A stretch of DNA of 64,000 bases from Alphaproteobacteria bacterium (GTDB lineage: Bacteria; Pseudomonadota; Alphaproteobacteria; Bin95): NCBI GenBank assembly GCA_040263875.1, contig JBDQJI010000003.1, positions 19,994 to 83,993 of the forward strand, given 5' to 3'. Below, one piece after another: positions 4,718 through 52,022 of the stretch. A program made the position numbers and the translations under genes. Each line of letters begins with the position of its first letter. Within the stretch, counting starts at the first letter, position 1. The notes below the pieces were generated by a model. That model did not search any database, was not told the origin of the DNA, and saw only the letters and a list, made by a program, of their open reading frames with translations.

Positions 4718-5272
4718 ATGGCCCGCATCCCATACCCTGACCTAGACACCTTGGATCCGGAGGTTGGCGCCTTCATGCGGCGGATTGATCCGATGGTAAA
4801 TGTCTTCCACATGATGGCGCATGCCGAGACCGCCGTTCGCCCATTCATGCGGCTTGGAAACGCCCTTTTGTTCAAAGGCGTACTTGACCCTGTTCTGCGA
4901 GAGATCGTGATCCTGCGGGTTGGGCATGTCACCGGATCAACCTACGAAGTGCATCAACACAAGATCGTCGGGCGCGATTGCGGCATGACGGATGCACAGA
5001 TCGAAGCTGTACCCGAAGGTGAAACCTCCGATGCCTTTACAGACCGCGAAAAGCTGGCCATTCGGGTAACGGATGAAGTGCTAGCCAATGTCCGCGTAAA
5101 GGATGAAACCTTTGCAGCGATGGAGGCCGCATTCAGTCATCGCGAGAAGACGGAATTGCTGATGGTGATTGGGTTTTACAACATGATCGCCGGATTCTTA
5201 GAAAACATGCAGATTGATATTGAGCCTGAAGGATTGATTGATAACCCCTTGAAACAGGCAAAGAAAGCATAG
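4718..5272 (+). CDS. Carboxymuconolactone decarboxylase (CMD/AhpD-like) family protein
   Basis: An all-helical 184-aa protein with CMD-family architecture (MARIPYPDLDTLDPEV..., and a repeat of the VGHVTGSTYEVHQH-type helix). An AAGGA ribosome-binding site lies 7 nt upstream. A TTGACT -35-like hexamer and the 10-bp palindrome TTTGCGCAAA sit in the upstream AT-rich region. Confidence 0.7.
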   Translation: MARIPYPDLDTLDPEVGAFMRRIDPMVNVFHMMAHAETAVRPFMRLGNALLFKGVLDPVLREIVILRVGHVTGSTYEVHQHKIVGRDCGMTDAQIEAVPEGETSDAFTDREKLAIRVTDEVLANVRVKDETFAAMEAAFSHREKTELLMVIGFYNMIAGFLENMQIDIEPEGLIDNPLKQAKKA

Positions 5273-5347: not shown

Positions 5348-6208
5348 ATGGCAGGGATATGTGAGATGCAGACGCTAAAATTTGCTCCGCCGAGGCTCAT
5401 CCCTTTTTCTGCAACTGCTGAGCATTTTCTCCACAATCGGTTCCATAAGGCCTGCGCTGGACTGATTGCGTCTGAACGACATTTGAACTGGATGCTGGCC
5501 CGAGCAATGCGAACGGCTGAGCCTGAATTTCGCGTGCCTTTGCCCTATGCCGTATCGGCTTTCGGGCCAAAACTTGACTTCACCGTCCAAGCGAATTCGA
5601 TCAACAAAATTCTTCGGGGATGGGTCCAAGGCACCGGCAAAATTGTGCGTGTAGATAATTGGTTCGTCGGTGCCCATGATTGGAGCAAGGTTCTGATCAA
5701 CACGGAAGATGATTCAATCGTCCAAGAAGCGCGAATGCTGATTGACGCAAATTTTCGCTTCGCCGAAATTGAAAGTTACGCAAATTACAGACAAAGACTT
5801 GAGGCTGGAGACGCGACCTGGCGCAATATCGGACGCCTTGATAGTATTGAAAGAATCGAAGATTATTTCAATCGCTTCAAAGCGTTATACCACTCGATTG
5901 AAAAACATGGCTTGCTCAGTCCAGATGAATTTTCCGATCAAGCTTCAGGACATGGTGAGGACCCTCCCCAACGCAGAATTGGAATCGCAATTGGTGCGGA
6001 CGGCACGCAATACCGCCTACCTGGCGGACAGCATCGATTTGCTATCGGACTTATATTGGGGTGTCAGATCCCGGTTCAACTTCGGTTGATCCATGTTAAC
6101 TACCTCAAAGCATTGGCAGACCCCGAGCAAACCTTGCCGGCCACGCTGATCTACAACGAAGTGCGGCAGCTTGCGGCGACGGGACGCGTCGGCGGAGGCG
6201 GCGGATAG
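5348..6208 (+). CDS. Hypothetical protein with a C-terminal ParB-N/sulfiredoxin-like motif, in a locally low-GC region
   Basis: IGIAIGADGTQYRLPGGQHRFAIGLILG fits the ParB/Srx-fold consensus (hydrophobic-x-V....DG.Y.L.dGHHR..A). This interval is visibly AT-richer than its flanks. The start codon is uncertain, with several in-frame Met. Confidence 0.45.
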   Translation: MAGICEMQTLKFAPPRLIPFSATAEHFLHNRFHKACAGLIASERHLNWMLARAMRTAEPEFRVPLPYAVSAFGPKLDFTVQANSINKILRGWVQGTGKIVRVDNWFVGAHDWSKVLINTEDDSIVQEARMLIDANFRFAEIESYANYRQRLEAGDATWRNIGRLDSIERIEDYFNRFKALYHSIEKHGLLSPDEFSDQASGHGEDPPQRRIGIAIGADGTQYRLPGGQHRFAIGLILGCQIPVQLRLIHVNYLKALADPEQTLPATLIYNEVRQLAATGRVGGGGG

Positions 6209-6223
6209 CGCTATCTCAGCAAC

Positions 6224-7294
6224 ATGAACGGTCACCCAATCCCACTCCATCTTTCGCCGCATGCACGTGCCGTCGGTCTCTGGCTGCTTGTTGTGGCTGC
6301 AATGGTTGGTGCCATGACAGTGATTGGCGGTGTGACGCGCTTGACCGAGTCTGGTCTCTCAATGGTCGAATGGCGTCCACTTATCGGCGCGCTACCGCCA
6401 TTCAGTGACGGGGAATGGGCTAGAGTATTTGCACTTTACCAAACATCCCCAGAATACCAGAAGATCAACAGCGGCATGTCGTTGGCAGAGTTCAAGCAGA
6501 TATTTTGGTGGGAATATATTCACCGGTTCTGGGGCCGGTTGATTGGCATCGCTTATGCAGCGCCGTTAGCATTCTTTTGGATCAAAGGCTGGATTCCCAA
6601 CGGTCTGCGAGCCAGAATGATTTTGCTATTGGCCCTTGGTGGCAGCCAAGGCGTTATTGGCTGGTGGATGGTGAAATCAGGCCTCGTCGACAGGCCTGAC
6701 GTCAGCCATTTCCGTTTGGCTATCCATCTTGGCATGGCGTTCATTATTGCAGGCGCTCTCGTATGGACCGCCTTAGATTTCCTTTTCCCCCGCACGGTAG
6801 ATGCAGCCCCAAAGGGTCTGCGCCGCATGAGTTGGGTCGTTCTCGCTGCATTGTTCTTTGTCATCATCCTCGGTGCGTTCGTAGCCGGGACGAATGCCGG
6901 AATGATCTATAATACCTTCCCACTCATGGATGGCCGCCTTTTGCCACCGGATTACGCTGCGCTGACCCCTTGGTGGCGTAATAGTCTTGAGAGCATTGGC
7001 GCTATCCAGTTCAATCACCGCTGGGCCGCTGTTCTAACAACCATTCTGATCATCACGCTGTGGCTTCAGGCTAGGGTTAGTGTGCTTCAAAGCCGACATC
7101 GCCAAGCGCCAAACGTTATGGCGCTTCTCGCTATCGTTCAGGTCGGCCTTGGGATCACGACGCTGCTTTCCGTCGTCTGGATACCCTTGGCCGCCCTGCA
7201 TCAGGCTACGGCGCTACTATTATTCGTCGCCGCCGTATGGACGGTATGGGCCTTTAGAGGCCAGACTGCGCCTGATGGTTACAAAAACAGTTAG
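6224..7294 (+). CDS. ctaA: Haem A synthase (COX15/CtaA)
   Basis: A polytopic membrane protein with the alphaproteobacterial CtaA N-terminus (GGVTRLTESGLSMVEWRPLIGALPP...EYQKIN...EFKQIFWWEYIHRFWGRLIG). Conserved His residues sit in the transmembrane helices. Confidence 0.85.
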   Translation: MNGHPIPLHLSPHARAVGLWLLVVAAMVGAMTVIGGVTRLTESGLSMVEWRPLIGALPPFSDGEWARVFALYQTSPEYQKINSGMSLAEFKQIFWWEYIHRFWGRLIGIAYAAPLAFFWIKGWIPNGLRARMILLLALGGSQGVIGWWMVKSGLVDRPDVSHFRLAIHLGMAFIIAGALVWTALDFLFPRTVDAAPKGLRRMSWVVLAALFFVIILGAFVAGTNAGMIYNTFPLMDGRLLPPDYAALTPWWRNSLESIGAIQFNHRWAAVLTTILIITLWLQARVSVLQSRHRQAPNVMALLAIVQVGLGITTLLSVVWIPLAALHQATALLLFVAAVWTVWAFRGQTAPDGYKNS

Positions 7295-7925
7295 AGCAAT
7301 ATCGCCCGAAGGTGCTGTCCGGCGCTTTCGCAAAGGTGTCCGGGCACTGACTGCAAGCGATCCTGGAATGGCTGCTATCGTGAAAGAAGCCGGACCGCCA
7401 CCCATTGCGTTGCGTGATCCAGGATTTCCAACCCTTTTGCGGGCTGTATGCGCTCAACAAATATCAGCCGCTGCCGCACGGACAGTATGGGCCAGGATTG
7501 AAGCAAAAACAGGCGCACCGGTTACAGCCACTGCATTCCTTGAGCTTGGCTATGATGGCGCTCGCTCTATCGGTTTTTCTGGCCGTAAAACAGGATACGC
7601 CATTGGTTTGGCAGAGGCCGAAGTCTCCGGCGCGCTGAATTTTGACGCGATAGCCCGCATGCCAGATGAGGAAGCTATTGAAACGCTGACAGCACTCCGC
7701 GGCATTGGTCGATGGACGGCAGAGGTCTACTTGATCTTTGCCCTTGGCCGGCCGGATGTATGGCCCGCCGCAGACATAGCACTTGTTGCAGCGGCTGGAC
7801 GGATTCGCGGGCTGGCGGAAAAACCGAGTTTCAAGGAAGCATCCGCCATCGCGGAAGAGTGGCGACCCTGGCGGGGAGCGGCGGCTATCCTGCTCTGGCA
7901 CTACTATCGGACCATGCCGCAGTAG
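7275..7925 (+). CDS. DNA-3-methyladenine glycosylase II family (HhH-GPD, AlkA-like) base-excision repair protein
   Basis: Has the HhH-GPD core LTALRGIGRWTAEVYLIFALGRPDVWPAADIAL with the catalytic Asp. The ATG at 7275 (MVTKTV...) overlaps the ctaA 3' end by 20 nt. The track ORF opens at 7080, but an earlier start would lie deep inside ctaA. Confidence 0.7.
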   Translation: MVTKTVRAISPEGAVRRFRKGVRALTASDPGMAAIVKEAGPPPIALRDPGFPTLLRAVCAQQISAAAARTVWARIEAKTGAPVTATAFLELGYDGARSIGFSGRKTGYAIGLAEAEVSGALNFDAIARMPDEEAIETLTALRGIGRWTAEVYLIFALGRPDVWPAADIALVAAAGRIRGLAEKPSFKEASAIAEEWRPWRGAAAILLWHYYRTMPQ

Positions 7926-8020
7926 AGACCACGCAGCGTACGGCGGACGAATTGACGGCTATCAGTCATCTGTGAGACTTTTATCCCAACATTGCATGCC
8001 CAGCCTGAAAGGATGTCCGA

Positions 8021-8563
8021 ATGTTTGATATGGACCGCTTCATCGATGATTGCGCCGCAGCTGTAAAAGCTGACCCCACGCACAAAACAGTCCGCCCAAT
8101 TGTGGAGCGTGTCGTCTCTGATCCGACCGCGTTGTTAAACACTATCGGCGAACCAGTAGCCGCAGGCGTCAACAAGATCTGCCACCGCCCGGACCTCACA
8201 ATTCTGAATTTAGTTTGGGGCAAGCGCATGACGCTGATGCCGCATAACCATAATATGTGGGCTGTGATCGGCATCTACACGGGCCGTGAAGACAACATTT
8301 TCTGGCGACGCTTGGACGAAGGCCCCTGCGGCCTGGAAGCCGCTGGCGCTAAAACGCTTGGTGTCGGCGATGTCGCTCCGCTGGGCGCAGACATCATTCA
8401 CTCCGTCACAAACCCGCTGGATAAGCTGACGGGTGCCATTCACGTTTATGGCGGTGATTTCTTCGCAGAACATCGGTCTGAATGGGAGCCAGAAAACCTG
8501 ACCGAACAGACCTATGATGTTGCGAAGAATATGGCGCTCTTTGAAGAAGCCAATCGTCGCTAA
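8021..8563 (+). CDS. Cupin (double-stranded beta-helix) metalloenzyme, cysteine-dioxygenase-like
   Basis: LNLVWGKRMTLMPHNHNMWAVIGIYTGREDNIFWRR has the layout of the cysteine-dioxygenase-type cupin family (VW.pgq.tpiHdH...w.v.G.l.G.E). A second cupin His lies further on (IHVYGG). It is 180 aa. Confidence 0.6.
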   Translation: MFDMDRFIDDCAAAVKADPTHKTVRPIVERVVSDPTALLNTIGEPVAAGVNKICHRPDLTILNLVWGKRMTLMPHNHNMWAVIGIYTGREDNIFWRRLDEGPCGLEAAGAKTLGVGDVAPLGADIIHSVTNPLDKLTGAIHVYGGDFFAEHRSEWEPENLTEQTYDVAKNMALFEEANRR

Positions 8564-8581
8564 GAACAAGGACTAGATCCG

Positions 8582-9415
8582 ATGCAGGTAGAGGCTATTG
8601 CGGGCGCACTTGGTGCCGAGATCAAAGGCGTTGATCTAAGCAGTGAACTGTCGAACAGCGATGCCGCCGCTGTCCGGGATGCCTTCCTGGATCACAAGGT
8701 TATCTTTTTCCGGGACCAAAAACTAACGCCGAATGATCAAGTCCGTTTTGCCAGCCTTTTCGGCGAACCTGATATTTATCCCTTCATCGAAGGCCTACCT
8801 GATACGCCTGAGGTCATCGAAATTCTGAAAGCTCAAGGCGACGCCAAGAACTTTGGCGGCAGTTGGCATTCAGATACCTCCTACATGGAGCAACCTGCGC
8901 TCGGCACTGTGCTCTATGCGCTGGAAACGCCAAAGGCTGGTGGCGACACACTTTTCGCCAATGCGGCTGCCGCCTATGAAGCGTTATCTGACGGCATGAA
9001 GTCCATGCTTGGCGACCTGAAAGGCGTGAACTGCTCCGAACATGGCTATGCTGGCGGCCGGGCAGCGGCGATGGCGAAGCTGGATGGCATGAAAGAAACC
9101 GACCAAGCGGCGACAGGGTACGAATCCCGTCATCCAATTGTGCGCACACATCCAGAGACGGGCCGGAAATCACTCTACCTCAACCGCTCCCACACGGCCT
9201 CTTTCGATACGATGACGGAAGCTGAAAGCAAGCCGCTGATCGACTTCCTCTGTGACCATATCACCCGACCAGAATTCACCTGCCGCTTTCGCTGGACGCC
9301 CGGTGCAATTGCAGTTTGGGACAACAGAGCGACCCAGCATTTTGCTGTGAACGACTACCCAGGCAAGCGTCGCCGCATGCATCGTGTGACGATTAAGGGC
9401 GACACGCCCCGGTGA
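8582..9415 (+). CDS. TauD/TfdA-family Fe(II)/2-oxoglutarate-dependent dioxygenase, taurine-dioxygenase-like
   Basis: WHSDTSYMEQPALGTVLYALETPKAGGDTLFANAAAAYEALS carries the HxD...H facial triad and the TauD-family context. It sits 18 nt downstream of the cupin gene. Its TGA stop overlaps the GTG start of the next gene (GTGA). Confidence 0.85.
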   Translation: MQVEAIAGALGAEIKGVDLSSELSNSDAAAVRDAFLDHKVIFFRDQKLTPNDQVRFASLFGEPDIYPFIEGLPDTPEVIEILKAQGDAKNFGGSWHSDTSYMEQPALGTVLYALETPKAGGDTLFANAAAAYEALSDGMKSMLGDLKGVNCSEHGYAGGRAAAMAKLDGMKETDQAATGYESRHPIVRTHPETGRKSLYLNRSHTASFDTMTEAESKPLIDFLCDHITRPEFTCRFRWTPGAIAVWDNRATQHFAVNDYPGKRRRMHRVTIKGDTPR

Positions 9416-10212
9416 CGGCTAAACCAAGCCAGCAAGGCGTTGCCTCAACAGACCTCTCAAACCGCTCGCTGATTAGCATCCTCGCTGGCGCTTTCAGTGT
9501 TAGCATTTTCGCGATCATTATTACGGCGAGCCTATCAGGTATATGGGGCTTGCCCGGCGGACCGCTGCTTCAGGCTGCCGCTGCCATTGGCTCGGTTTGC
9601 CTAGTCGGATCGTTTGTCGCTGTGCTGGCAAAGCGGCGCGGGCGGCCGGGGAAAGCCGGATTTAGGTCTCACATCTGGCTCGCCAGCATCGGCACAGGGC
9701 TTGTCTTAGCCCACGGCGCTAGCGGGCTGCTAAAACCGCCAGCCACGCTGTTTGTGCTTCTGCTGCTGCTCATCGGCCTCGGTGTCTGGTCCAGGCTACA
9801 AGGTGCGCGGATGATGGCGCGGACTTTCGGTGAAAAGCGCGCGGGCTTCGAAAAACCGAATCCAGCGGTACGGGCACGGCTCGCCGCCCTCATTGAGCAG
9901 AAGCAGGCATTGCTGGCCAAGCTTGATCCGAGTGCGCATGAGGCTCTCTTCTCACCGCAATTCCGACATTGGTTAAGCGCCCCGATCCTAACACTCAGCT
10001 ATACGAAGCTTGCCGCAGAAGAAAGCCGCATTATCGGTGCTGCCGCCGGCTTACCGCAGATCCAGGCACGCTGGCGGCTTCTACATCGATTGGCAGCGCT
10101 GGCATTCGTTGGCGGGCTGCTGGCGCACATCATCATCGTTATGCTGTTCGCAGGATACGCTGCAGACGGCGGCGATATCTATTGGCTTCACTTCGCAGCA
10201 TGGGATTTTTGA
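9412..10212 (+). CDS. Integral membrane protein with about 5 transmembrane helices and two His-x13-His pairs, predicted to be a dihaem cytochrome b-type membrane anchor
   Basis: Hydrophobic helices contain HIWLASIGTGLVLAH and HRLAALAFVGGLLAH, with His at i and i+14 in two separate helices, as in bis-haem cytochrome b subunits (FdnI/NarI/HyaC-like). It is translationally coupled to tauD upstream and ends 5 nt before the Mo-enzyme gene. Confidence 0.5.
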   Translation: MTAKPSQQGVASTDLSNRSLISILAGAFSVSIFAIIITASLSGIWGLPGGPLLQAAAAIGSVCLVGSFVAVLAKRRGRPGKAGFRSHIWLASIGTGLVLAHGASGLLKPPATLFVLLLLLIGLGVWSRLQGARMMARTFGEKRAGFEKPNPAVRARLAALIEQKQALLAKLDPSAHEALFSPQFRHWLSAPILTLSYTKLAAEESRIIGAAAGLPQIQARWRLLHRLAALAFVGGLLAHIIIVMLFAGYAADGGDIYWLHFAAWDF

Positions 10213-10217
10213 GCGTC

Positions 10218-13142
10218 ATGTCACGCCTAGCCCTGATGATCGATCTGGAACGCTGCATTGGCTGTAAAAGCTGTGAGGCCGCCTGCAAAGCCGAGCATGG
10301 CCTCGGCCCTGGCGAACGGCGAAACCGCGTCGTCTGGCTTGGCGGCGACAATGGCCCAACCTTGGACTTCCTGAAGCTGGCCTGCCAGCACTGCGAGCGT
10401 CCAGCATGCCTCCGCGCCTGCCCGGTTGAACCTAAAGCCATCCGCAAAGACGCAGAAACCGGCATCGTATCGATCATTGAAGAAAGCTGTGTTGGTTGCG
10501 GTGAATGCGTCGCCGCCTGCCCATACGGCGCGATGGGCTATGACGCTGGCGGGCATCACGCGGTCAAATGTGACCTATGTCATGACCGACGGGCAGAGGG
10601 TGCAGCAACAACCGCATGTGCCAGCGTTTGCCCCGGCAAAGCGATTACGTTTGGCGAGCGCGACCCTATGTTGGCAGGCGCCGAAGCTGATGGCCGCACT
10701 GCCATCGACAACGATCCGTATCTTTTGGCACCAGCGACCATTTACCTAGATCGTATTATCCGCGACGCATCCGCCTTTGACGTTTTTGAGCAATCAACGC
10801 CAGCCGTATCTGATGACGGCGAGCCGGACCCTGAAACAGCAACCGCCTTTCCCTTCGGCCTGCCCCGTGAGGAGCGATTGGCCGATAGGATTGAGCCAGG
10901 CGGGTGCAATATCTGCTTCAATGCCTGCACGACCAACTTTCACTTCAAGGATGATAGGCTGGTCAAGGTAACCGGCAATGAATCTGACCCCATGCTGGAA
11001 GGCCGTGTCTGCCCGAAGTCTCAGTTCTCGCTGCAACTCTATAATTCCAAGGACCGGCTGACCCAGCCGCTAAAGCGCGTCGGTGAGCGCGGCGAGAATA
11101 AGTTCGAGCCAATTTCCTGGGAACAGGCGCTGGATGAGATCGCGGAAAAGCTTGGCGCGATCCGGGATGACTTTGGGCCAGAAGCCTTGGCGATATTCTC
11201 AGGTACGCGTACGGGCACTTTGACCAATAAGGGTTATATCCGCCTGTTCCGCCAACTTTGGGGCACGCCGAATTTTGAAACTACGGAGCCCTATTGCTCC
11301 TTCGGCAAGAACATCGCCTACAACATGGTTCAAGGCGCTGGCGGCAGTGGCAATAGCTATACTGAAGGCGACATGGGCTCGGCCGAGCTCTACGTCTATA
11401 TGGGCGACAATCAGGCGGAAACGCGCCCTGTCCACTTCGGCATGATCAATGACTGGCGGCTGATAAACCGCGCTAGATTGATCGCCATTGATCCACGTAT
11501 GACAGTCACAGCCTCCAAGGCGGATTGGCATTTGCCGATCCGGCCCGGCGGCGACATGGCCCTGTCCCTCGCCATCGCACATCACATATTTTCCGAGAAC
11601 CTCCACGACGCAAAGTTTTGCGAAGAATGGGTGCTTGGCTGGGAAGAATGGCGCGATTTCATTTTTGCGAGCGGGTATTCGCCAGAATGGGCAGCCCCGA
11701 TAACCGATCTTCCCGCTGAGGACATCAAGCGGCTGGCGGAAGAAATCGCCCGCGCCGATGGCTGCGTCATCTTCGGAAGCCGGGGCTTGAACCAGCACGT
11801 GAATTCGGTCCAATCCAACCGTGCGATCATGTTTGTAGCGGCCATTACGGGCAATTGGGGTCGACGGGGTGGTGCCTATTTCAACATGTCGGCATCTGTT
11901 CCTGCTGAAGCCAATGCGCCGGAGGGCAGGATCGCGCCGCTGAATAAGCCCCGCGTCCGCACCAGCCCCACGGGTTGGGTCGACGCCATGCGCACCAGCC
12001 AGCCCTACGCCCTAAAGGCACTCATTGCCTGCAACAATCCCATGTCACTCTGGCCCGACCAGACGGAGACGCGGGATGGATTGAACGCACTTGATCTTCT
12101 GGTCCACATCGACATCTTCCCGAATGAAACCAGCGCTTATGCCGACTACGTTCTGCCTGCCGCCACTGGCATCGAGAAAGGCGAGGTTGGCCGCGCCTGC
12201 GAAGATCGCCGCGTCGTGTGGATAGACCGCATGATCGAGCCGCCAGGTGTCGCCAAACCGGATGGATGGATTTGGATCGAGCTTGGAAAACGTTTTGGCT
12301 TCGATGATGTGCTGAAAGAGGAGTGGAAAGACTCAGCGAAGTTCTGGGATGAAGCCATGATTGATCATGTGCAGATGCGCGGCGTCACCCAAAAACGCCT
12401 GCATTCCAGGCCCTATCGCTGGGTCCGTTTCCCTGTCGCGACAGAGGAAGCCGAAGAAATCAATACGCTCTATCTGGAAGGCACGACTGCGCCCGGCAAA
12501 CCAGAAGGCCATCGTTTCCCTTCCCCCAGTGGCAAGCTTGAATTCTTCACGGAGGAAATGGATGCCAAGTTCAGAAGCTATGGCCTATCCGCCCTGCCGG
12601 AATTCTATAGCGAGGGCGAAAGCCTGTTCGATATGGCGCATCTGGAAATGCTGGACCCCGACTGGACTGAAGGCATTAAAAGCCCGTTCTTGAACGGTGC
12701 CGCCTATGCCTCCCGCGCACGTATTGTTGATGCCAGCGAGGCCCAGCCCGCCGCCAATCTCCGCGCCCAAGGCTATGACATGGAACTTGTCACTGGCCGC
12801 GCACCTGCCCCGCACTTCCATTCCTGGACGCATTATTCATGGCAAGCGCAGGAAATGTGGCCGGACTTATACGCGCAGATGCATCCCGCCACCGCCAAAC
12901 GCCTTGGGATTGATGATGGCGACCGCGTTACGGTCGAAACATCCCACGGTAAGGCAGACGCACGCGCCTGGATCACCAATGGCATCCGCGAACGCGCTAT
13001 CTTCATGCCCATCGGCTGGGGCGAACGGCAACCGTTCAACCCCTGGCGGCCAGTTAATGACCTAACCGACAAACATCAACGCTGCCCTATCTCAGAGCAA
13101 ACGAACTTGAAGTCTCTACTCTGCCGGGTAAGCGCGGCCTAG
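10218..13142 (+). CDS. Fusion protein: an N-terminal four-cluster [4Fe-4S] ferredoxin-type subunit (DmsB/FdnH/NarH-like) joined to a molybdopterin oxidoreductase catalytic subunit (MopB, Mo-bisPGD family). No Tat signal.
   Basis: The N-terminus has four Cys clusters: CIGCKSCEAAC, CQHCERPACLRACP, CVGCGECVAACP and CDLCHD...CASVCP. Then comes the MopB N-terminal cluster CNICFNAC...RVCPK and a candidate Mo-ligand Cys (TTEPYCSFGK), with the MopB body continuing to about 975 aa. The start MSRLALMIDLERC has no twin-arginine motif. Confidence 0.8.
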   Translation: MSRLALMIDLERCIGCKSCEAACKAEHGLGPGERRNRVVWLGGDNGPTLDFLKLACQHCERPACLRACPVEPKAIRKDAETGIVSIIEESCVGCGECVAACPYGAMGYDAGGHHAVKCDLCHDRRAEGAATTACASVCPGKAITFGERDPMLAGAEADGRTAIDNDPYLLAPATIYLDRIIRDASAFDVFEQSTPAVSDDGEPDPETATAFPFGLPREERLADRIEPGGCNICFNACTTNFHFKDDRLVKVTGNESDPMLEGRVCPKSQFSLQLYNSKDRLTQPLKRVGERGENKFEPISWEQALDEIAEKLGAIRDDFGPEALAIFSGTRTGTLTNKGYIRLFRQLWGTPNFETTEPYCSFGKNIAYNMVQGAGGSGNSYTEGDMGSAELYVYMGDNQAETRPVHFGMINDWRLINRARLIAIDPRMTVTASKADWHLPIRPGGDMALSLAIAHHIFSENLHDAKFCEEWVLGWEEWRDFIFASGYSPEWAAPITDLPAEDIKRLAEEIARADGCVIFGSRGLNQHVNSVQSNRAIMFVAAITGNWGRRGGAYFNMSASVPAEANAPEGRIAPLNKPRVRTSPTGWVDAMRTSQPYALKALIACNNPMSLWPDQTETRDGLNALDLLVHIDIFPNETSAYADYVLPAATGIEKGEVGRACEDRRVVWIDRMIEPPGVAKPDGWIWIELGKRFGFDDVLKEEWKDSAKFWDEAMIDHVQMRGVTQKRLHSRPYRWVRFPVATEEAEEINTLYLEGTTAPGKPEGHRFPSPSGKLEFFTEEMDAKFRSYGLSALPEFYSEGESLFDMAHLEMLDPDWTEGIKSPFLNGAAYASRARIVDASEAQPAANLRAQGYDMELVTGRAPAPHFHSWTHYSWQAQEMWPDLYAQMHPATAKRLGIDDGDRVTVETSHGKADARAWITNGIRERAIFMPIGWGERQPFNPWRPVNDLTDKHQRCPISEQTNLKSLLCRVSAA

Positions 13143-13146
13143 GCGA

Positions 13147-13935
13147 TCAATCTGCCTTAGGTGCGATCTTCTGCTTGAGTGATGTCATGCCTTTGATCCA
13201 ACGCTCTGGATCAGATGCTTTTTTGGCCCAATACGTGCCTGCAGGCGGGTGCGTATAGATCATAAAGCGATCGTCGGCGATGCCTTCGAGGATCACCTCT
13301 GCCGCCGTATCCGCCGTCATCACCCCATCCCGGACGGTGCCAGTATCTGGCATCCCATCTGTCATAGGGGTCGCCACACGAAGGGGGCAGACTACGGATA
13401 CGCCAACGCCCTTTGGTCCCCATTCCACAGCCAACCATTCCGCCAACCCAACAGCGCCATGTTTGGTCGCTGTATATACGGCTGAATTCATCTGCATCAG
13501 AATACCGGCGGCAGACGCTACATTTACCAGTTTGCCTCCGCCCCTTGCCGCCATACCCGGTGCGACTGCTCGCGCGGCAAACAAATGCGCCATCACATGA
13601 ACGCGCCACTGCTGATCCCAATGGGCATTGTCATCTCGGATTGGTTTGGGGCTAATGCCAGCATTAGAGATAAAAAGATCAACGGGCCCCAACTCAGCCT
13701 CAGTCTTTACGACCAAGGCCTGAATGGCCGCCTCATCCGTAACATCGGTTGGGACAGCAAGGCCGCCTATTTCTTTGGCTGAAGTCTGAAGTTTGTCTGC
13801 GTTCAGGTCCGCCATGGCGACACCCTTGGCGCCCGCGGCTATCAAAGCCTTTGAAAGTGCAAACCCTATACCGCCACTAGCGCCCGTAACCACTGCGACC
13901 TTACCTGAAACGTCCATCCATGCCTCCCGGATCAA
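13147..13935 (-). CDS. SDR-family short-chain dehydrogenase/reductase
   Basis: GKVAVVTGASGGIGFALSKAL Rossmann motif, NAG (ISNAGI), and the catalytic YxxxK (VYTATKHGAVGL). Confidence 0.85.
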   Translation of the reverse strand: MIREAWMDVSGKVAVVTGASGGIGFALSKALIAAGAKGVAMADLNADKLQTSAKEIGGLAVPTDVTDEAAIQALVVKTEAELGPVDLFISNAGISPKPIRDDNAHWDQQWRVHVMAHLFAARAVAPGMAARGGGKLVNVASAAGILMQMNSAVYTATKHGAVGLAEWLAVEWGPKGVGVSVVCPLRVATPMTDGMPDTGTVRDGVMTADTAAEVILEGIADDRFMIYTHPPAGTYWAKKASDPERWIKGMTSLKQKIAPKAD

Positions 13936-19571: not shown

Positions 19572-20666
19572 ATGGCTAAAATTGACCATATTGAAACGCG
19601 CCTTTTCCATGTACCGCTGGATGAACCTTTGGCAGATGCGAAGCATGGCACGCACACGCATTTTGAACTGATTACCGCCACTGTTCATTTAGATGATGGC
19701 CGGTCTGGCACGGGCTACAGCTATACTGGTGGACGTGGCGGATTTGCTGTCGCGGCAATGATTGAACACGACTTGGCACCGTTCCTCATGGGCCAAGCGC
19801 CAGATGATGTTGAAGCGCTGTATGAAGCCATGCAGTGGCACGTGCACTATGTCGCCCGTGGTGGGATTGCGTCTTTCGCCATTTCAGCCGTCGATATCGC
19901 ACTTTGGGATCTACGCGGACATGCTCGGGGACAACCCCTTTGGCAAATGGCTGGCGGCGCTTCACGCACGACTAAGGCGTATTGCGGCGGGATTGATCTA
20001 AATTTCACCCAGGAACGCTTGCTGAAAAACATCCAGGGCTATCTGGATAACGGCTTCAACGCGGTCAAAATCAAAGTTGGAAAGCCGGAATTGGATGAGG
20101 ACGCACAGCGCAGCGCCGCCGTCCGTAAGCTCATCGGCCCGGATGTGGCTTTCATGGTGGATGCCAATTATTCACTAACAGTCGAACAAGCCATCCCGGC
20201 GGCGCGCGTGTTCATGGAGCAGGATATTCTTTGGTTCGAGGAGCCGATTATCCCAGATAACTATGCTGGATACGCTGAAATCGCTGCAGCGACGGGCTGC
20301 CCGCTCGCCATGGGCGAAAACCTGCACACGATCCATGAGTTCGAATATGCTTTTGCCCAATCAAACTTATCGTTCATCCAGCCGGACGCCTCAAATTGTG
20401 GTGGCATTACTGGATGGCTTCAGGTGTCTACCCTCGCGAAACAGCACGGCATTCCTGTGTGCAGTCATGGCATGCAGGAGTTGCAAGTCAGCCTCCTAGC
20501 CGCACAGCCACATGCCGGTTGGCTCGAAGTCCACAGCTTCCCGATTGACCGCTACACGACACGACCGCTAGTGGTCGAAAACTGTCTTGCAGTGGCACCG
20601 GATGAACCAGGGACAGGCGTGACATTTGATTGGGATAGCTTGAACGGCTTCGAACAAGCCCGTTAG
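19572..20666 (+). CDS. Mandelate racemase / muconate lactonizing enzyme family (enolase superfamily) protein
   Basis: N-terminal capping domain, KIKVG...D (general-base Lys motif [14 protein letters not shown]), and metal ligands D(MVDANY)...E(FEEP)...D(IQPD). Confidence 0.85.
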
Positions 20667-22066
20667 CCGACCTGCTCCGTTGTCACGGGGAAATGCGCTG
20701 CAAGATCGTCTGCCTCCATCAGATGATAGGCGTTGAAGCGGTAAGCGGGGCCAGCCGCAAGTTCTGGCGGCGTAAACGGAAACGCAATGTTGCCGCTAGT
20801 GGACAGCCTTCCTGGAAAGCCGTGATGCAGCAGATATTGCTTCGTTGATTTCGTAACGGCGAGCGCGCGATCTCTAGTTGGCGCAATCACCTCACCCAGA
20901 ATGAATATCTCACGGAGCGGTGTCACAGGCGGGTCTGGCCAAGGAAATACCGCATCCAAGCCATACGTGCGGAAGGTCAAGTCATAGTCTGGTGGTACGC
21001 CGGCACCACACACTAAATCCTGCACAACGCCTTTCACTTCTTCCAGCAAAGTTTTCACATTCTGGATAAATCGCGGGTCCGCTGATCCTGCAAGCAAAAC
21101 CGCTCGTTCGCCCAGATAGCGCGCACCCTCCAGCTTGATTGTTAGCTGCTCCGCAGGCTCCCAGCGCGCACCTTCGACGCGGGTGCGCCTGGCATCAACA
21201 GCACTGTAGGTCGCTGTATCGACCAGTGCCGCACCTTCAGGCTCTGTAATCCTGTGGGGGTCCGCTTGCTCATAAAGACTATGCGCAGCGACAGACATAG
21301 GCGTTGCGGCCCGTGCGGGGTTCATACTTTCCAGCACAAAGCCTTGCTTATCCAGCACCGCCAGAATCGGATCACGACCACCTGGCAAGCAGCACAGTGA
21401 GGCGCATTCGACGATTTTGGCCATATGGACGGTCAGCCCGGTCGGAAAGCCCAGCCATTCCGGAATGCAGGCATAAATGCCCGTATCGCAGGCGCGACCA
21501 GCAATGATTACGTCTGGCTCAGTCTCCAATGCACGAATAAACGCCTCTGTCCCTGCCTGCCCAACCAAGTTTGAGCTGGCGTGGACTTCTTCTACTGTCA
21601 AATCCGGTAGAACGCCCATGCCGCGCACGCGTCCAGCATCAACGGCAGCGCTCACACTATCGCGATCCATATCGGAACGAATAACGGCCAGTTTGAAACT
21701 CAGGCCATGCTCAGCTGCGATATCCCGGATTATCGCCAACGTCGCGTCCAAGTGCGCTGCAGCGCCTGCAGAACCGGCGCTGCCAATGATCAGCGGGATA
21801 TTGTGGGTCCGCGCGCCAACCAACAACTTCTCCAGGTCACGCCGCGTTTGCTCACCTGCGGTCGCCATCTCGCCGGCGCCTAGGAATGTTGGCCCGATAT
21901 CTGTGGATCCCATGTCAGCGCCGATCATGTCCGGCTTCCGGGCCAGTGCCGTTGTGAACGCTGGCTCTGGCACCCCGTAGCCAAGCTGCCCCGTCGCGCC
22001 GATCAATTTCAGCGGCTGGTCAGGGTTGGCCACGAAACGTGCGCGCAGGCGGGCGACGGCGCTCAT
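20663..22066 (-). CDS. DUF1446 / AtuA-like (acyclic terpene utilisation family) protein
   Basis: 467 aa, starting [31 protein letters not shown]. Size and N-terminal pattern fit AtuA-family proteins. It is paired immediately upstream with a roughly 100-aa DUF4387-like ORF, which is the canonical arrangement. Confidence 0.6.
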
Positions 22067-22365
22067 ACTTCAATCTCCAACAATGGCGCATGTTGCTGCG
22101 CGCCGTATACGTCCCGATCTCCGGGCGCACCGGCGGCTTCATGGCGCGGCAGCGTGATCTTCATGGCGAGCGCCGTCGGGTATGGTGTGATGACAACGGC
22201 GTTGGCCGAAACGCTGTAGATTTTGGCGATAGGTTCTGCCCGTAAGCCAGGTGCTGCCAGGCAACGTTCATAGTCCGCTTCGGTCTCTAACATTATGTCG
22301 AATGTCAGATGCAGAGGCCCTGCATTCTTGCTGCGGACAACACGAGCCATATCCATCAATCGCAT
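22063..22365 (-). CDS. DUF4387-like small protein, the AtuA-associated partner
   Basis: A 100-aa ORF (MRLMDMARVVRSKNAGPLHLTFDIMLE...) whose stop overlaps the AtuA-like start by 4 nt. The ~100-aa partner directly 5' of AtuA is the usual gene pair. Confidence 0.5.
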   Translation of the reverse strand: MRLMDMARVVRSKNAGPLHLTFDIMLETEADYERCLAAPGLRAEPIAKIYSVSANAVVITPYPTALAMKITLPRHEAAGAPGDRDVYGAQQHAPLLEIEV

Positions 22366-25724: not shown

Positions 25725-25867
25725 CTTTGATATTCCTGTGAATGAATTCGTCGTCTCTGTCCGCATGGTGAGGCGCATAGAGGCTGCTTGTCCAGAGTAT
25801 ACCCGCTTGGCTCATCAGCATGGCGGCGTTAGCCTGTTCTTCCGATCCCGAAGTTCAGGTTTGCTTG

Positions 25868-27946: not shown

Positions 27947-27959
27947 TAGGATAAAGCCA

Positions 27960-40994: not shown

Positions 40995-41816
40995 CTATAC
41001 GGCTTCCGGCGTTGTGATTATGTCGTGAATCTTGTTCCAAATATCTTCGTCCGGCGCAAGCAAGCCAGGAACATCTGCGTTTGACGGCTTATAGGGCTCA
41101 CCCGTAATCAGCTTGCCCACGCCGCCCGCTTCACTGTGCATCAGAAATCCTGCCGCATGATCCCAAGGGAAGAGCTTGGAATAGCCGCCAAAGTGCGAAA
41201 GCCCCGCCAGGCGCGACATGTGCTCATGGCCGACGCAGCGGGCATTAAATACGCCGCCCATCTTGCCGCGGCCCCTAGCCCATGTGGCTTGAAAGCCTGT
41301 GGATCGGCGGAACATACGCCCGTAGATTGATCCGTTCATCAAACGGCTTTCGGACGGTGTGTGGACGCTAAGCCGTCGGCCCCCGAACCATGCCCCCCCG
41401 CCAAGCGAGCCAACAAAGGTGCGATCGCTATACGGATCATGAATCCAGCCCGCTAGCACTTCGTCCTTACGCACCAGCGCCAAGATGACAGCAGAAAGCG
41501 GATATCCAGCGGCAAAATTCCCTGTGCCGTCAATCGGATCAATCACCCAGGACAGATGACCATCTGCCAATCCAGCGATGGACACCCTGCCCTCGCTGAC
41601 CGCTTCCTCACCCACAATCTGTGCATCAGGCGTCAAGTCCTGCAAAGCCGCGCCTAACCTGCGTTCAACTGCCAGGTCGGCAGAGGTCACGAAATCCCCC
41701 GCAGACTTTTCAGTCACTTCAGCCCGTGAAAGTACGCCGAGTTTTGCCTTCACTTCCTCAGCGGCGATTTCAACAATGATCGCCGTAATCGCGTCAAAAT
41801 CGATATCAGGCGTCAT
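40995..41816 (-). CDS. Inositol monophosphatase family protein
   Basis: VGEEA...WVIDPIDGTGNF metal-binding motifs of the IMPase/FBPase fold. Confidence 0.8.
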   Translation of the reverse strand: MTPDIDFDAITAIIVEIAAEEVKAKLGVLSRAEVTEKSAGDFVTSADLAVERRLGAALQDLTPDAQIVGEEAVSEGRVSIAGLADGHLSWVIDPIDGTGNFAAGYPLSAVILALVRKDEVLAGWIHDPYSDRTFVGSLGGGAWFGGRRLSVHTPSESRLMNGSIYGRMFRRSTGFQATWARGRGKMGGVFNARCVGHEHMSRLAGLSHFGGYSKLFPWDHAAGFLMHSEAGGVGKLITGEPYKPSNADVPGLLAPDEDIWNKIHDIITTPEAV

Positions 41817-43123: not shown

Positions 43124-43125
43124 CG

Positions 43126-43383: not shown

Positions 43384-43511
43384 GCTGGCAATCCACATGC
43401 AATGGGTTTTTTGACGAAGCTAACCACATGTCGCTCGCCGCAACCGCTTATTGTTGAAGCTCTAATGTGCACCCGGCACCTGCATTCTACAAGTACCTCT
43501 GCGATGTGCGC

Positions 43512-44369: not shown

Positions 44370-44388
44370 TATGGCCCCCTATTTGCGC

Positions 44389-47162: not shown

Positions 47163-47220
47163 GGGTTTACTCTCCTAAGGCGCGCAGCACGCCGCACCAG
47201 CGTTCGTTTAGCAGAAATGA

Positions 47221-52001: not shown

Positions 52002-52022
52002 ATGTTCTGAGCCTTCTGTAAA

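What the first reader, a model, noticed from the sequence alone, without database searches (positions are those of the whole stretch)
8021..13142. Four-gene operon coupling two dioxygenases (cupin and TauD-like) to a cytochrome-b-anchored molybdopterin oxidoreductase
The four genes are packed at 18-nt, -4-nt (GTGA overlap) and 5-nt spacings on one strand, so co-transcription and translational coupling are very likely. They are a cysteine-dioxygenase-like cupin, a TauD/TfdA Fe/2-oxoglutarate dioxygenase, a dihaem-cytochrome-b-like membrane protein, and a Mo-bisPGD enzyme. The content suggests an oxidative catabolic module. Two oxygenases would act on the substrate: TauD-type enzymes typically release sulfite or hydroxylate at C-alpha, and CDO-type cupins oxidise thiols. 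A membrane-quinone-linked Mo enzyme would then oxidise or reduce a product. I do not recognise this combination as a described pathway. The sulfur chemistry is a guess; formate, aldehyde or N-oxide chemistry is also possible.
Basis: partly seen in the sequence, partly recalled or inferred. Interest (0 to 1): 0.75.

Follow-up and report, generated by a model that had tools for sequence, protein, structure and literature searches.

The report
Organosulfur dioxygenases plus new membrane molybdoenzyme
Two oxygen-dependent sulfur-compound enzymes sit in one operon with an uncharacterised, widely distributed two-gene molybdenum enzyme (a fused iron-sulfur/molybdenum protein plus a new haem-type membrane anchor) that most likely oxidises the toxic sulfite they release, though no experiment has tested this.

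Summary
Four same-strand genes lie at 8021-13142 with 18-nt, -4-nt (GTGA) and 5-nt junctions. g1 is a 3-His cupin of the thiol-dioxygenase (CDO/3MDO) fold. g2 is a TauD-family Fe/2-oxoglutarate dioxygenase, but not a canonical taurine dioxygenase. g3 is a 5-TM protein with four invariant His, two in TM3 and two in TM5, 14 residues apart in each helix (dihaem-b-like). g4 is a Mo-bisPGD enzyme.

- g4 starts at ATG 10218 and fuses an N-terminal four-cluster ferredoxin (DmsB/PsrB-like) to the Mo subunit. It has no Tat signal, so it should face the cytoplasm.
- The conserved unit is the g3-g4 pair, not the four genes. g3 lies directly upstream of g4 in 76 of 76 related loci. A TauD gene precedes g3 in 24 of 76, and g1 precedes that in 11 of 76.

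g4 reaches no curated family cut-off. g3 has no Pfam family and only 227 relatives among 1.84 billion representative proteins. Nearly all hosts are uncultured Proteobacteria, including SAR116.

The most likely function is a cytoplasmic sulfite (S(IV)):quinone oxidoreductase, an analogue of SoeABC. This rests only on gene context (TauD-family genes of at least three subfamilies, TauE/SafE) and the Cys Mo ligand. Confidence is moderate.

The parts
8021..8563 (+). g1: 180-aa 3-His cupin of the thiol-dioxygenase fold (CDO/3MDO/MSDO-like). Predicted metal ligands are H75, H77 and H127. H141-x-Y143 corresponds to the His-Tyr of the thiol-dioxygenase Ser-His-Tyr triad. R152 aligns with the carboxylate-binding R168 of 3MDO.
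   Evidence: No Pfam or NCBIfam hit. A family profile matches 3-mercaptopropionate dioxygenase at 4e-7, mercaptosuccinate dioxygenase at 2.6e-6 and CDO. The AF2 model has pLDDT 92. The top 50 Foldseek PDB hits are all thiol dioxygenases, with TM up to 0.77. Invariant residues come from alignment A5. The roles of R168 and of the triad are from my recollection of the 3MDO literature.
8582..9415 (+). g2: 277-aa TauD/TfdA-family Fe(II)/2-oxoglutarate dioxygenase. Fe ligands H96, D98 and H253, the 2OG Arg R264 and the anion-binding Arg R268 are kept. The taurine-specific pocket residues are replaced.
   Evidence: Pfam TauD 1.1e-67. The NCBIfam taurine dioxygenase equivalog scores 253 bits against a cut-off of 313. 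The best PDB match is P. putida TauD 3pvj at 1.7e-66, followed by RdpA and AtsK. A pocket comparison with E. coli TauD shows H70Y, Y73I, N95G, N97S, V102T, S158G, F159Y and F206H, almost unchanged in 19 orthologues next to g3-g4; two of them differ at N97 (G) and S158 (L).
9412..10212 (+). g3: 266-aa integral membrane protein with 5 predicted TM helices and N-in/C-out topology. A roughly 90-residue basic helical loop (128-221) lies on the cytoplasmic side. It is the putative dihaem cytochrome b anchor and electron conduit for g4. Haem-ligand candidates are H87/H101 in TM3 and H225/H239 in TM5 (codons 9670-9672, 9712-9714, 10084-10086, 10126-10128).
10218..10727 (+). g4 N-terminal domain (aa 1-170): a four-[4Fe-4S] ferredoxin of the DmsB/PsrB/NrfC type. 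The Cys groups are C13/16/19/23, C56/59/64/68, C91/94/97/101 and C118/121/134/138. There is no signal peptide or twin-arginine motif.
   Evidence: Pfam Fer4_11 and related models. NCBIfam DmsB, NrfC and TtrB all score below cut-off. PDB PsrB (2vpw_B) matches at 6e-22 over residues 1-151. All 16 Cys are invariant in alignment A1. The N-terminus MSRLALMIDLERC runs straight into the first cluster motif.
10905..13142 (+). g4 Mo-bisPGD catalytic domain (aa 230-974). It carries an FS0 [4Fe-4S] motif (C230/C233/C237/C265), the Mo ligand Cys360 (codon 11295-11297) followed by Ser361, and an active-site Arg522.
   Evidence: Pfam Molybdop_Fe4S4, Molybdopterin and Molydop_binding. The closest solved structure is T. 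thermophilus PsrA 2vpw_A at 3.9e-65. C360 aligns with PsrA C173 and R522 with PsrA R332. C360 also aligns with NapA C140 and with the FDH Cys, while S361 occupies the position of the FDH His. These residues are invariant in A1. No NCBIfam cut-off is reached: Fdh-alpha 322/666, PhsA 313/694, NasC 218/1100. That PsrA C173, NapA C140 and the aligned FDH Cys ligate the metal is from my recollection of the literature.

Best explanation
The region is a four-gene operon built around a conserved two-gene respiratory module.

Architecture (shown by sequence):
- g4 is a cytoplasm-facing enzyme in which a four-[4Fe-4S] ferredoxin is fused in front of a Cys-ligated Mo-bisPGD catalytic subunit.
- g3 is its dedicated membrane partner. 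It is a new five-helix protein whose two His pairs in TM3 and TM5 would hold one haem b near each face of the membrane.
- The implied electron wire is Mo - FS0 - FS1-4 - haem b (proximal, distal) - quinone pool.

Function (inferred from context): the module oxidises sulfite (S(IV)) to sulfate in the cytoplasm and passes the electrons to the aerobic respiratory chain. It would then be a non-orthologous analogue of SoeABC.

In this genome the module has been joined to two O2-dependent enzymes that generate S(IV):
- g2, a TauD-type dioxygenase, would hydroxylate an anionic, non-taurine sulfonate and release sulfite plus an aldehyde.
- g1, a thiol dioxygenase, would convert a thiol (probably carboxylate-bearing) to a sulfinate, which yields sulfite after desulfination.

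The operon would then both detoxify sulfite and conserve energy from organosulfur compounds.
For: Architecture:
- Domain content and Cys motifs.
- No export signal.
- g3 directly upstream of g4 in 76 of 76 loci, with a median gap of 26 nt.
- Invariant His pairs and positive-inside topology.
- A dihaem-b-like fold.

Sulfur link:
- A TauD-family gene sits immediately upstream of g3 in 24 of 76 loci. It is by far the commonest Pfam among upstream neighbours, matching 17 of 119 sampled ORFs.
- These TauD genes belong to at least two different subfamilies with different pockets, and a third type lies downstream in SAR116 loci. This points to the shared product, sulfite, rather than one carbon skeleton.
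- TauE/SafE (the sulfite/sulfonate exporter family) is the commonest downstream neighbour. It follows g4 on the same strand in L023, L030, L039, L046 and L052, and by 3 nt in L085.
- A PF03601 'putative sulfate exporter' gene lies near the pair in the only cultured host found.
- g1 is a thiol dioxygenase homologue.

Chemistry:
- The Mo ligand is Cys and the conserved Arg is kept, as in the Psr/Phs/Nap/Fdh group that acts on small anions. The closest structure is polysulfide reductase.
- From my recollection of the literature, known S- and N-oxide reductases use a Ser ligand instead.
- Both partner enzymes need O2, so the module must work in aerobic cells, which suits a dehydrogenase feeding the quinone pool.

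Precedent: thiol dioxygenase (Mdo/Msdo) -> sulfinate -> sulfite -> cytoplasm-facing Fe/S molybdoenzyme SoeABC -> sulfate exporter has been described or proposed for Variovorax paradoxus and Advenella mimigardefordensis (PMC5373536; PMC6370202).
Against: - No experiment exists for any member. The function rests on gene neighbourhood.
- In about two thirds of loci the g3-g4 pair has no sulfur gene beside it and lies among housekeeping genes.
- A transmembrane dihaem anchor under a cytoplasmic catalytic subunit is the topology of NarGHI, a quinol-oxidising reductase. SoeABC uses a haem-free NrfD-type anchor instead.
- I could not obtain a SoeA sequence, so relatedness to SoeA is untested.
- The nearest unfused relative in a cultured actinomycete lies in an arsenic-resistance island. 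In Pseudohalocynthiibacter an NAD(P)H/FAD/2Fe-2S reductase gene precedes the pair.
- The substrate of g2 is unknown. AtsK-like members of its family release sulfate, not sulfite.
- The g1 family is very large and normally unlinked to these genes.
Confidence: 0.4

Rival explanations
1. The module is a quinol-dependent cytoplasmic reductase with a Nar-like redox loop. g3 oxidises quinol at the outer face and passes electrons inward through two haems and five FeS clusters to g4. g4 then reduces a cytoplasmic oxyanion or oxide such as nitrate, an S- or N-oxide, or another oxidised small molecule. The dioxygenases would be only loosely related to it.
For: The topology (cytoplasmic Mo/FeS subunit plus a transmembrane dihaem b) is the one known from NarGHI (my recollection). 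The pair often stands alone in housekeeping contexts, as a repair or assimilation enzyme might. An FMO-like monooxygenase gene lies two genes downstream of g4 (after TauE and a tRNA_edit gene) in L085. An NAD(P)H-dependent FAD/2Fe-2S reductase gene precedes the pair in Pseudohalocynthiibacter.
Against: The Mo ligand is Cys, not the Ser of the S/N-oxide reductases or the Asp of NarG (ligand identities in those families are recalled). No nitrate or nitrite transporter or nitrite reductase family appears in the neighbour censuses, which list only the 25 commonest families. NasC scores 218 bits against a cut-off of 1100. This reading does not explain the recurrent TauD and TauE neighbours. Cytoplasm-facing Nitrobacter-type NXR shows that this topology also serves oxidising enzymes (recalled).
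Confidence: 0.2
2. The four genes form a linear pathway with a Mo sulfinate dehydrogenase. g1 oxidises a thiol to a sulfinate (for example cysteamine to hypotaurine, or 3-mercaptopropionate to 3-sulfinopropionate). g3-g4 adds the third oxygen from water to give the sulfonate. g2 then cleaves the sulfonate to sulfite plus an aldehyde.
For: Every gene gets a role in gene order-compatible chemistry. Sulfinate to sulfonate is an oxygen-atom transfer of the same type as sulfite to sulfate. g1 is a thiol dioxygenase homologue and g2 a TauD-type enzyme. From memory, the hypotaurine dehydrogenase entry EC 1.8.1.3 is described as a molybdohaemoprotein.
Against: g1 accompanies the module in only 11 of 76 loci and TauD in 24 of 76. 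A sulfinate dehydrogenase alone would be of little use in the roughly 50 loci without either partner. Several different TauD subfamilies are attached, which argues against one fixed intermediate. The sulfite made at the end would still need a separate oxidase. The literature search found no bacterial Mo-dependent sulfinate dehydrogenase.
Confidence: 0.12
3. There is no shared pathway. g3-g4 has an unrelated, still unknown role, for example oxidation of arsenite or another metalloid or oxyanion. The dioxygenase genes are beside it through lineage-specific synteny or shared regulation only.
For: Most loci lack the dioxygenases. In Burkholderiales the constant upstream neighbour is an ADP-forming acyl-CoA synthetase/GNAT gene with no obvious link. 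In L010 and L037 an Ogt-like DNA-repair gene is inserted between g3 and g4. A 30%-identical Streptomyces relative sits in an ars island beside ArsO.
Against: TauD genes of different subfamilies occupy the same position immediately upstream of g3 in distant lineages, and g2 overlaps g3 by 4 nt in the window. TauE/SafE follows g4 by 3 nt in L085 and on the same strand in five other loci. No ars genes are seen near the fused family in 80 loci. ArrA and AioA score lower than PhsA and Fdh.
Confidence: 0.18

Closest known systems
SoeABC sulfite:quinone oxidoreductase (Allochromatium vinosum, Ruegeria pomeroyi; invoked for Variovorax paradoxus)
   Same: It is a cytoplasm-facing, membrane-bound Mo-bisPGD/FeS enzyme with no Tat signal. 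It is proposed to oxidise sulfite released inside the cell by sulfonate and thiol-dioxygenase pathways, with sulfate exported afterwards (PMC6370202; PMC5373536). This is the role I propose for g3-g4.
   Different: From my recollection of Dahl et al. 2013, SoeABC has three separate subunits and a haem-free NrfD/PsrC-type anchor (SoeC). Here the FeS and Mo subunits are fused in B-A order and the anchor is an unrelated five-helix, four-His protein. Sequence relatedness to SoeA could not be tested because no SoeA sequence or model was available.
Polysulfide/thiosulfate reductases PsrABC and PhsABC
   Same: They are the closest relatives by sequence and solved structure: PsrA 3.9e-65, PsrB 6e-22, NCBIfam PhsA 313 bits. 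They share the Cys Mo ligand (C173 aligned with C360), the active-site Arg (R332 aligned with R522), the FS0 cluster and a four-cluster partner.
   Different: From my recollection, Psr and Phs are Tat-exported periplasmic reductases with separate A and B subunits and NrfD-type (PsrC) or PF01292-type (PhsC) anchors. g4 scores less than half the PhsA cut-off, lacks a signal peptide, is fused, and is found in aerobes next to O2-dependent enzymes.
NarGHI nitrate reductase and Nitrobacter-type NXR
   Same: Same overall topology: a cytoplasmic Mo/FeS catalytic part sitting on a transmembrane dihaem cytochrome b.
   Different: From my recollection, NarG uses an Asp ligand and belongs to the type II clade. 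NarI (PF02665) has a different His spacing and is not detected in g3. No nitrate-related neighbours appear among the commonest neighbour families.
Taurine dioxygenase TauD, with relatives AtsK and RdpA
   Same: g2 has the full TauD fold and matches the PDB TauD entries at 1.7e-66 (P. putida 3pvj) and 8.6e-58 (1gqw). It keeps the HxD...H Fe triad, the 2OG Arg and the anion-binding Arg.
   Different: It scores below the NCBIfam equivalog cut-off (253 against 313). The taurine amine and sulfonate contacts H70, Y73, N95 and S158 are replaced by Y, I, G and G in nearly all orthologues linked to g3-g4; two of the 19 have L at the S158 position. No tauABC transporter genes are adjacent.
Thiol dioxygenases: 3-mercaptopropionate dioxygenase, mercaptosuccinate dioxygenase, cysteine dioxygenase
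   Same: g1 has the same fold (TM up to 0.77), the 3-His metal site, the His-Tyr of the catalytic triad, and an Arg aligned with the carboxylate-binding R168 of 3MDO.
   Different: Identity is only about 21-23%. The Pfam CDO_I model does not detect it. The triad Ser position is Ala. It belongs to a separate, very large and highly conserved family of about 181 aa (COG5553-type annotation) with no characterised member that I could find.
Dihaem four-helix cytochromes b (CybB/cytochrome b561, FdnI, HyaC, NOX/FRD domains)
   Different: There is no significant sequence match to any of their Pfam families. g3 has five helices plus a conserved cytoplasmic helical domain of about 90 residues. Its family is very small and all members are about the same size.

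Membership tests
Mo/W-bisPGD (DMSO reductase) superfamily | Molybdopterin and Molydop_binding domains with an N-terminal FS0 Cys motif | tested here: met
   PF00384 1.4e-44, PF01568 2e-24, PF04879 9e-07. C230, C233, C237 and C265 are invariant.
Complex iron-sulfur molybdoenzyme (CISM) architecture | Catalytic subunit plus four-cluster FeS subunit plus membrane anchor encoded together | tested here: met
   All three parts are present, but the FeS and Mo parts are fused in one 974-aa chain and the anchor belongs to no known anchor family.
Formate dehydrogenase (FdhF/FdnG type) | SeCys/Cys Mo ligand followed by a conserved His; NCBIfam cut-off reached | tested here: not met
   C360 is followed by S361 where FDH has His. 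Fdh-alpha scores 322 bits against a cut-off of 666.
Assimilatory or periplasmic nitrate reductase (NasC/NapA) | Score above the family cut-off; nitrate/nitrite genes nearby | tested here: not met
   NasC scores 218 against 1100 and NapA 158 against 904. No nitrate or nitrite families appear among the 25 commonest neighbour families in either census.
PsrA/PhsA polysulfide or thiosulfate reductase | Family cut-off reached; Tat signal; separate B subunit; NrfD- or PhsC-type anchor | tested here: not met
   PhsA scores 313 against 694. The N-terminus has no twin-arginine motif. The FeS domain is fused. g3 matches no NrfD or Ni_hydr_CYTB model.
SoeABC sulfite dehydrogenase | Cytoplasmic orientation without a Tat signal | tested here: met
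   No signal peptide; the first FeS motif starts at residue 13. The orientation itself is an inference.
SoeABC sulfite dehydrogenase | Three separate subunits with an NrfD-type SoeC anchor; orthology to SoeA | tested here: not met
   The FeS-Mo chain is fused and the anchor is not NrfD-like. Orthology to SoeA itself could not be tested because no SoeA sequence or model was available.
SoeABC sulfite dehydrogenase | Sulfite-dependent quinone reduction | not testable with these tools
   Needs an enzyme assay.
Taurine dioxygenase TauD (equivalog) | TauD fold with the Fe(II)/2OG ligands | tested here: met
   PF02668 1.1e-67. H96, D98, H253 and R264 are conserved.
Taurine dioxygenase TauD (equivalog) | Equivalog cut-off reached and taurine-contact residues (H70, Y73, N95, S158 in E. 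coli) kept | tested here: not met
   253 bits against a cut-off of 313. The residues are Y, I, G and G. Their role as taurine contacts is from my recollection of the TauD structure papers.
Thiol dioxygenase (CDO/3MDO/MSDO) | Cupin fold with a 3-His iron site and the second-sphere His-Tyr | tested here: met
   Foldseek top 50 hits are all thiol dioxygenases. H75, H77, H127, H141 and Y143 are invariant. Profile E-value 4e-7 to 3MDO.
Thiol dioxygenase (CDO/3MDO/MSDO) | Detected by the Pfam CDO_I model; complete Ser-His-Tyr triad | tested here: not met
   No Pfam hit even at E 0.1. The Ser position is Ala139.
Dihaem cytochrome b membrane anchors | Two pairs of conserved His in two TM helices, positioned for two bis-His haems | tested here: met
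   H87/H101 and H225/H239 are invariant in every sequence that covers them, among 78 sequences. The model has the four-helix-bundle fold of dihaem b proteins.
Dihaem cytochrome b membrane anchors | Membership of a known family (NarI, FdnI/Ni_hydr_CYTB, cytochrome b561, FRD) | tested here: not met
   The only hit is a sub-threshold DUF4405 match at E 0.05. An exhaustive profile search returns only the family itself, 227 proteins.
Dihaem cytochrome b membrane anchors | Actual haem b binding and a quinone site | not testable with these tools
   Needs spectroscopy.

The most novel reading that the evidence does not exclude
g3-g4 defines a new class of respiratory S(IV) dehydrogenase: a fused FeS-Mo subunit on a previously unrecognised dihaem cytochrome b. 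It would be widespread in uncultured marine and freshwater Proteobacteria, including SAR116, where it replaces SoeABC or Sor enzymes. Together with dedicated non-taurine TauD-type desulfonating dioxygenases and a thiol dioxygenase, it would form a self-contained module that turns dissolved organosulfur into sulfate while feeding electrons to the quinone pool.
Probability: 0.35. Interest if true: 0.75.

Novelty: new variant of a known kind. Interest (0 to 1): 0.6.

Why it matters
Sulfonates and thiols are major currencies of marine dissolved organic matter. Every aerobic desulfonation route ends in toxic sulfite, yet many abundant uncultured lineages lack an assigned sulfite-oxidising enzyme.

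If g3-g4 is that enzyme, several things follow:
- Hundreds of genomes now labelled only 'molybdopterin-dependent oxidoreductase' plus 'hypothetical protein' could be annotated.
- A new subunit architecture and a new haem-binding membrane anchor would be added to the molybdoenzyme repertoire.
- The associated TauD subfamilies, with their conserved non-taurine pocket, would be flagged as unexplored desulfonating enzymes.

Even if the substrate proves different, the pair is a conserved, experimentally approachable respiratory module of unknown function. One cultured host is available: Pseudohalocynthiibacter aestuariivivens RR4-35, plasmid pRR4-35_5.

Tried and rejected
- Promoter/terminator consensus scan of 7700-13400: nothing above the shuffled expectation.
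- Pfam and NCBIfam on g1 and g3, also at E up to 0.1: no usable family.
- NCBIfam on the Mo domain alone, looking for a SoeA or other specific model: none reached its cut-off and no SoeA model was listed.
- Full-text searches gave no description of this gene set. Terms covered SoeABC/taurine, hypotaurine dehydrogenase with molybdenum, SAR116 with sulfite and molybdopterin, organosulfonate with SoeABC, and mercaptosuccinate with molybdopterin oxidoreductase.
- The 2011 Variovorax B4 paper on the molybdopterin oxidoreductase mutants is not held. What I recall of it is not used as evidence. Later papers equate that enzyme with SoeABC.
- Context of the wider g1 family in three long contigs: no Mo or TauD genes, so g1 is not a general partner.
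- A dedicated maturation chaperone between g3 and g4: the extra ORF in L010/L037 is an Ogt-like DNA methyltransferase, not a NarJ/DmsD-type chaperone.
- Formate dehydrogenase and nitrate reductase readings were rejected on the motif and on scores.
- The wider window contains general heterotroph and core genes (CtaA, pdh, ntrBC/YX, hydantoinase) and no sulfonate transporter or other sulfur genes.
- A Foldseek search of AFDB for g3 was unavailable.
- Genome-wide co-occurrence with soeABC or sorAB could not be done, because only loci are retrievable, not whole genomes.

Full report
**1. The observation**

The four ORFs exist as described.
- g1: 8021-8563, 180 aa.
- g2: 8582-9415, 277 aa.
- g3: 9412-10212, 266 aa, with a GTG start.
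- g4: ends at 13142.

Reading the junctions confirms an 18-nt gap after the g1 TAA stop, a GTGA overlap between g2 and g3, and 5 nt between the g3 TGA stop and an ATG at 10218. The mechanical ORF for g4 starts at TTG 9969 inside g3. The ATG at 10218 gives the N-terminus MSRLALMIDLERCIGC shared by all homologues, so g4 is 974 aa.

The flanking genes are a HhH-GPD glycosylase upstream on the same strand, 95 nt away, and a convergent SDR downstream. A promoter/terminator consensus scan was uninformative.

**2. What the four proteins are**

g1 has no Pfam or NCBIfam hit.
- A profile of its family matches 3-mercaptopropionate dioxygenase (4e-7), mercaptosuccinate dioxygenase and cysteine dioxygenases.
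- Its AlphaFold model (pLDDT 92) retrieves only thiol dioxygenases in the top 50 PDB matches, with TM up to 0.77.
- H75, H77 and H127 (the 3-His site), H141 and Y143 are invariant. R152 aligns with the carboxylate-binding Arg168 of 3MDO (the role of R168 is recalled).
- The family is very large: at least 8000 clusters, about 181 aa, 65-70% identical, annotated only as 'predicted metal-dependent enzyme, double-stranded beta helix'.
- In three long contigs it lies in unrelated contexts.

g2 is a TauD-family dioxygenase (PF02668, 1e-67).
- It is closest to P. putida TauD, followed by RdpA and AtsK.
- It scores below the NCBIfam taurine-dioxygenase cut-off, 253 against 313.
- Aligned to E. coli TauD, it keeps the Fe and 2OG ligands and the anion-binding Arg270 equivalent. 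It replaces the taurine contacts: H70Y, Y73I, N95G, N97S, V102T, S158G, F159Y and F206H.
- That signature is essentially unchanged in the 19 orthologues (58-96% identity) that sit upstream of g3-g4; the L010 and L037 genes have G at N97 and L at S158.
- It is therefore a distinct subfamily acting on an anionic substrate that is not taurine.

g3 has no family.
- A word-seeded search found 38 hypothetical proteins.
- An exhaustive profile search of 1.84 billion representatives found only 227 proteins, nearly all under 300 aa.
- It has five predicted TM helices. The basic loops 74-86 and 128-221 lie on one side and the K/R-free loops on the other, which implies N-in/C-out topology.
- H87 and H101 in TM3, and H225 and H239 in TM5, are invariant in every sequence that covers them, among 78 sequences down to 37% identity.
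- By the topology, H87/H225 lie near the cytoplasmic face and H101/H239 near the outer face. That is the arrangement expected for two bis-His haems b.

g4 is a fusion.
- Residues 1-170 carry four complete Cys motifs of a DmsB/PsrB-type four-cluster ferredoxin.
- Residues 230-974 are a Mo-bisPGD catalytic subunit with an FS0 motif.
- The closest solved structure is Thermus polysulfide reductase PsrA/PsrB (3.9e-65 and 6e-22).
- Cys360 aligns with the Mo ligand Cys173 of PsrA and Arg522 with Arg332.
- Cys360 also aligns with NapA Cys140 and with the FDH Cys, but is followed by Ser rather than the FDH His.
- No NCBIfam model comes near its cut-off.
- There is no signal peptide or twin-arginine motif, and the first FeS motif begins at residue 13. 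The enzyme should therefore face the cytoplasm, where the two dioxygenases also act.

**3. Conservation**

The g4 family has more than 1000 clusters of full-length proteins of 970-1010 aa at 62-91% identity, all with generic names.
- A scan of one genome per GTDB species found 389 relatives.
- The best 80 are all MAGs or single-cell genomes of Alpha- and Betaproteobacteria plus unclassified Proteobacteria. They include the SAR116 cluster, Thalassobaculaceae, Hyphomicrobiaceae and Burkholderiales.
- L001-L003 are 97-98% identical to the window, which therefore comes from an uncultured alphaproteobacterium.

In 76 of 76 loci with enough upstream DNA, a g3 homologue lies directly upstream on the same strand, with a median gap of 26 nt. 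A TauD gene lies directly upstream of g3 in 24 loci, and g1 directly upstream of that in 11.

The TauD genes are of at least two subfamilies: the window type, and a type 36-41% identical with a different pocket in L026, L027, L075, L076 and L080. SAR116 loci carry a third type downstream.

Pfam censuses of the two nearest ORFs on each side give these commonest families:
- Upstream: TauD, 17 of 119 ORFs.
- Downstream: TauE/SafE, 6 of 113 ORFs, then Amidohydro_2.

In L085, TauE follows g4 by 3 nt. Elsewhere the pair stands alone among housekeeping genes. In Burkholderiales it follows an ADP-forming acyl-CoA synthetase/GNAT gene, which is probably plain synteny.

The only cultured host found is Pseudohalocynthiibacter aestuariivivens, on a plasmid (53.5% identity).
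- The gene order there is LysR, an FAD/NAD/2Fe-2S reductase, a g3 homologue (37% identity) and g4.
- Nearby lie a PF03601 'putative sulfate exporter', BetB, a Rieske protein, an amidohydrolase and a betaine-type ABC transporter.

**4. How it most likely works**

The architecture is shown by sequence. It is a complete electron wire: a Cys-ligated Mo centre, five FeS clusters, and two candidate haems spanning the membrane. It is encoded by a pair of genes that never separate.

The substrate and the direction of electron flow are inferred. I favour cytoplasmic sulfite (S(IV)) oxidation coupled to the quinone pool, for five reasons:
- The only recurrent functional neighbours are sulfite-releasing TauD-type enzymes and TauE/SafE or sulfate-exporter-type permeases.
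- Different TauD subfamilies are recruited to the same position. This suggests that the common product matters, not one carbon skeleton.
- g1 belongs to the thiol dioxygenases, whose sulfinate products end as sulfite.
- Cys ligation and the nearest relatives point to small sulfur or oxy-anions rather than S- or N-oxides.
- The partner enzymes need O2, so the module operates in aerobic cells.

The same logic (thiol dioxygenase or desulfonation, then sulfite, then a cytoplasm-facing Fe/S molybdoenzyme, then a sulfate exporter) is described or proposed with SoeABC in Variovorax and Advenella.

The weaknesses are these:
- There are no experimental data for any member.
- Two thirds of loci have no sulfur neighbour.
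- The dihaem topology is best known from the reductase NarGHI.
- A distant Streptomyces relative lies in an ars island.
- I could not compare g4 with SoeA.

I put the sulfite-dehydrogenase model at about 0.4, a Nar-like reductase at 0.2, a sulfinate dehydrogenase in a linear g1-g4-g2 pathway at 0.12, and an unrelated function at 0.18.

**5. Comparison and novelty**

The system works like a CISM-type respiratory molybdoenzyme and, I propose, like SoeABC.
- It is not a member of the Psr/Phs, Fdh, Nas/Nap or Soe families by the tests available.
- g2 is not an equivalog of TauD, and g1 is only a distant thiol-dioxygenase relative.
- The B-A fusion and the g3 anchor have no described counterpart that I could find.

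I rate it a new variant of a known kind.

**6. Verdict**

The feature is real and conserved. Its components are correctly identified, its function is plausible but unproven, and it is of moderate to high interest (0.6).

Noticed in passing
window 5348-6208 (+): A 286-aa ORF with no Pfam hit even at E 0.1. It lies between a carboxymuconolactone-decarboxylase-family gene (4718-5272) and CtaA/COX15 haem A synthase (6224-7294).
   Followed up: no
window 41813-59953 (- strand): A block of alphaproteobacterial core genes. It contains pyruvate dehydrogenase E1-beta-like, E2 and Lpd genes (55695-59953), NtrB/NtrC/NtrY/NtrX (45756-52001), TrkA and HflX. This indicates a chromosomal rather than plasmid origin for the window.
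   Followed up: partly
L010:2557-3096 and the equivalent gap in L037: An Ogt/MGMT-like gene (O6-alkylguanine-DNA alkyltransferase, PCHRV motif) is inserted between the otherwise contiguous g3 and g4 homologues. DNA-repair genes also flank the module in the window (HhH-GPD upstream) and in Burkholderiales (a MutY-like gene downstream).
   Followed up: partly
L089 (Streptomyces sp. NBC_01708 plasmid) 5809-8334: An unfused Mo-bisPGD protein about 30% identical to the g4 Mo domain lies inside an arsenic-resistance island (ArsR, ArsC, TrxAB, ACR3). It is directly downstream of an ArsO flavin monooxygenase gene.
   Followed up: no
L084 (Pseudohalocynthiibacter aestuariivivens pRR4-35_5) 4995-26466: In the only cultured host found, g3-g4 is preceded by an FAD/NAD/2Fe-2S reductase gene. 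The pair is surrounded by a PF03601 putative sulfate exporter, BetB, a Rieske protein, an Amidohydro_2 gene, a fatty-acid-desaturase-like gene with a ferredoxin, a second Mo-bisPGD protein of 733 aa, and a betaine/choline-type ABC transporter.
   Followed up: partly
L015-L019 (SAR116 and Rhodospirillaceae MAGs/SAGs): The gene order is AMP-binding acyl-CoA ligase (opposite strand), TauD, g3, g4, then a second divergent TauD paralogue (absent in L019), then two Amidohydro_2 genes. This suggests a larger catabolic cluster around the module in SAR116.
   Followed up: partly
L085 9929-12613: In an abundant marine alphaproteobacterial lineage (81-member cluster), g4 is followed by TauE/SafE after a 3-nt gap, then a YbaK/tRNA_edit-domain gene and an FMO-like flavin monooxygenase. 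A xanthine-dehydrogenase-type Mo protein lies upstream on the opposite strand.
   Followed up: no
window 25820-29513 and 20663-22365: A hydantoinase/oxoprolinase A gene followed by an unannotated 583-aa ORF (27762-29513) that could be its B subunit. An AtuA-like gene with a small downstream ORF lies next to an MFS transporter and a class-III aminotransferase.
   Followed up: no
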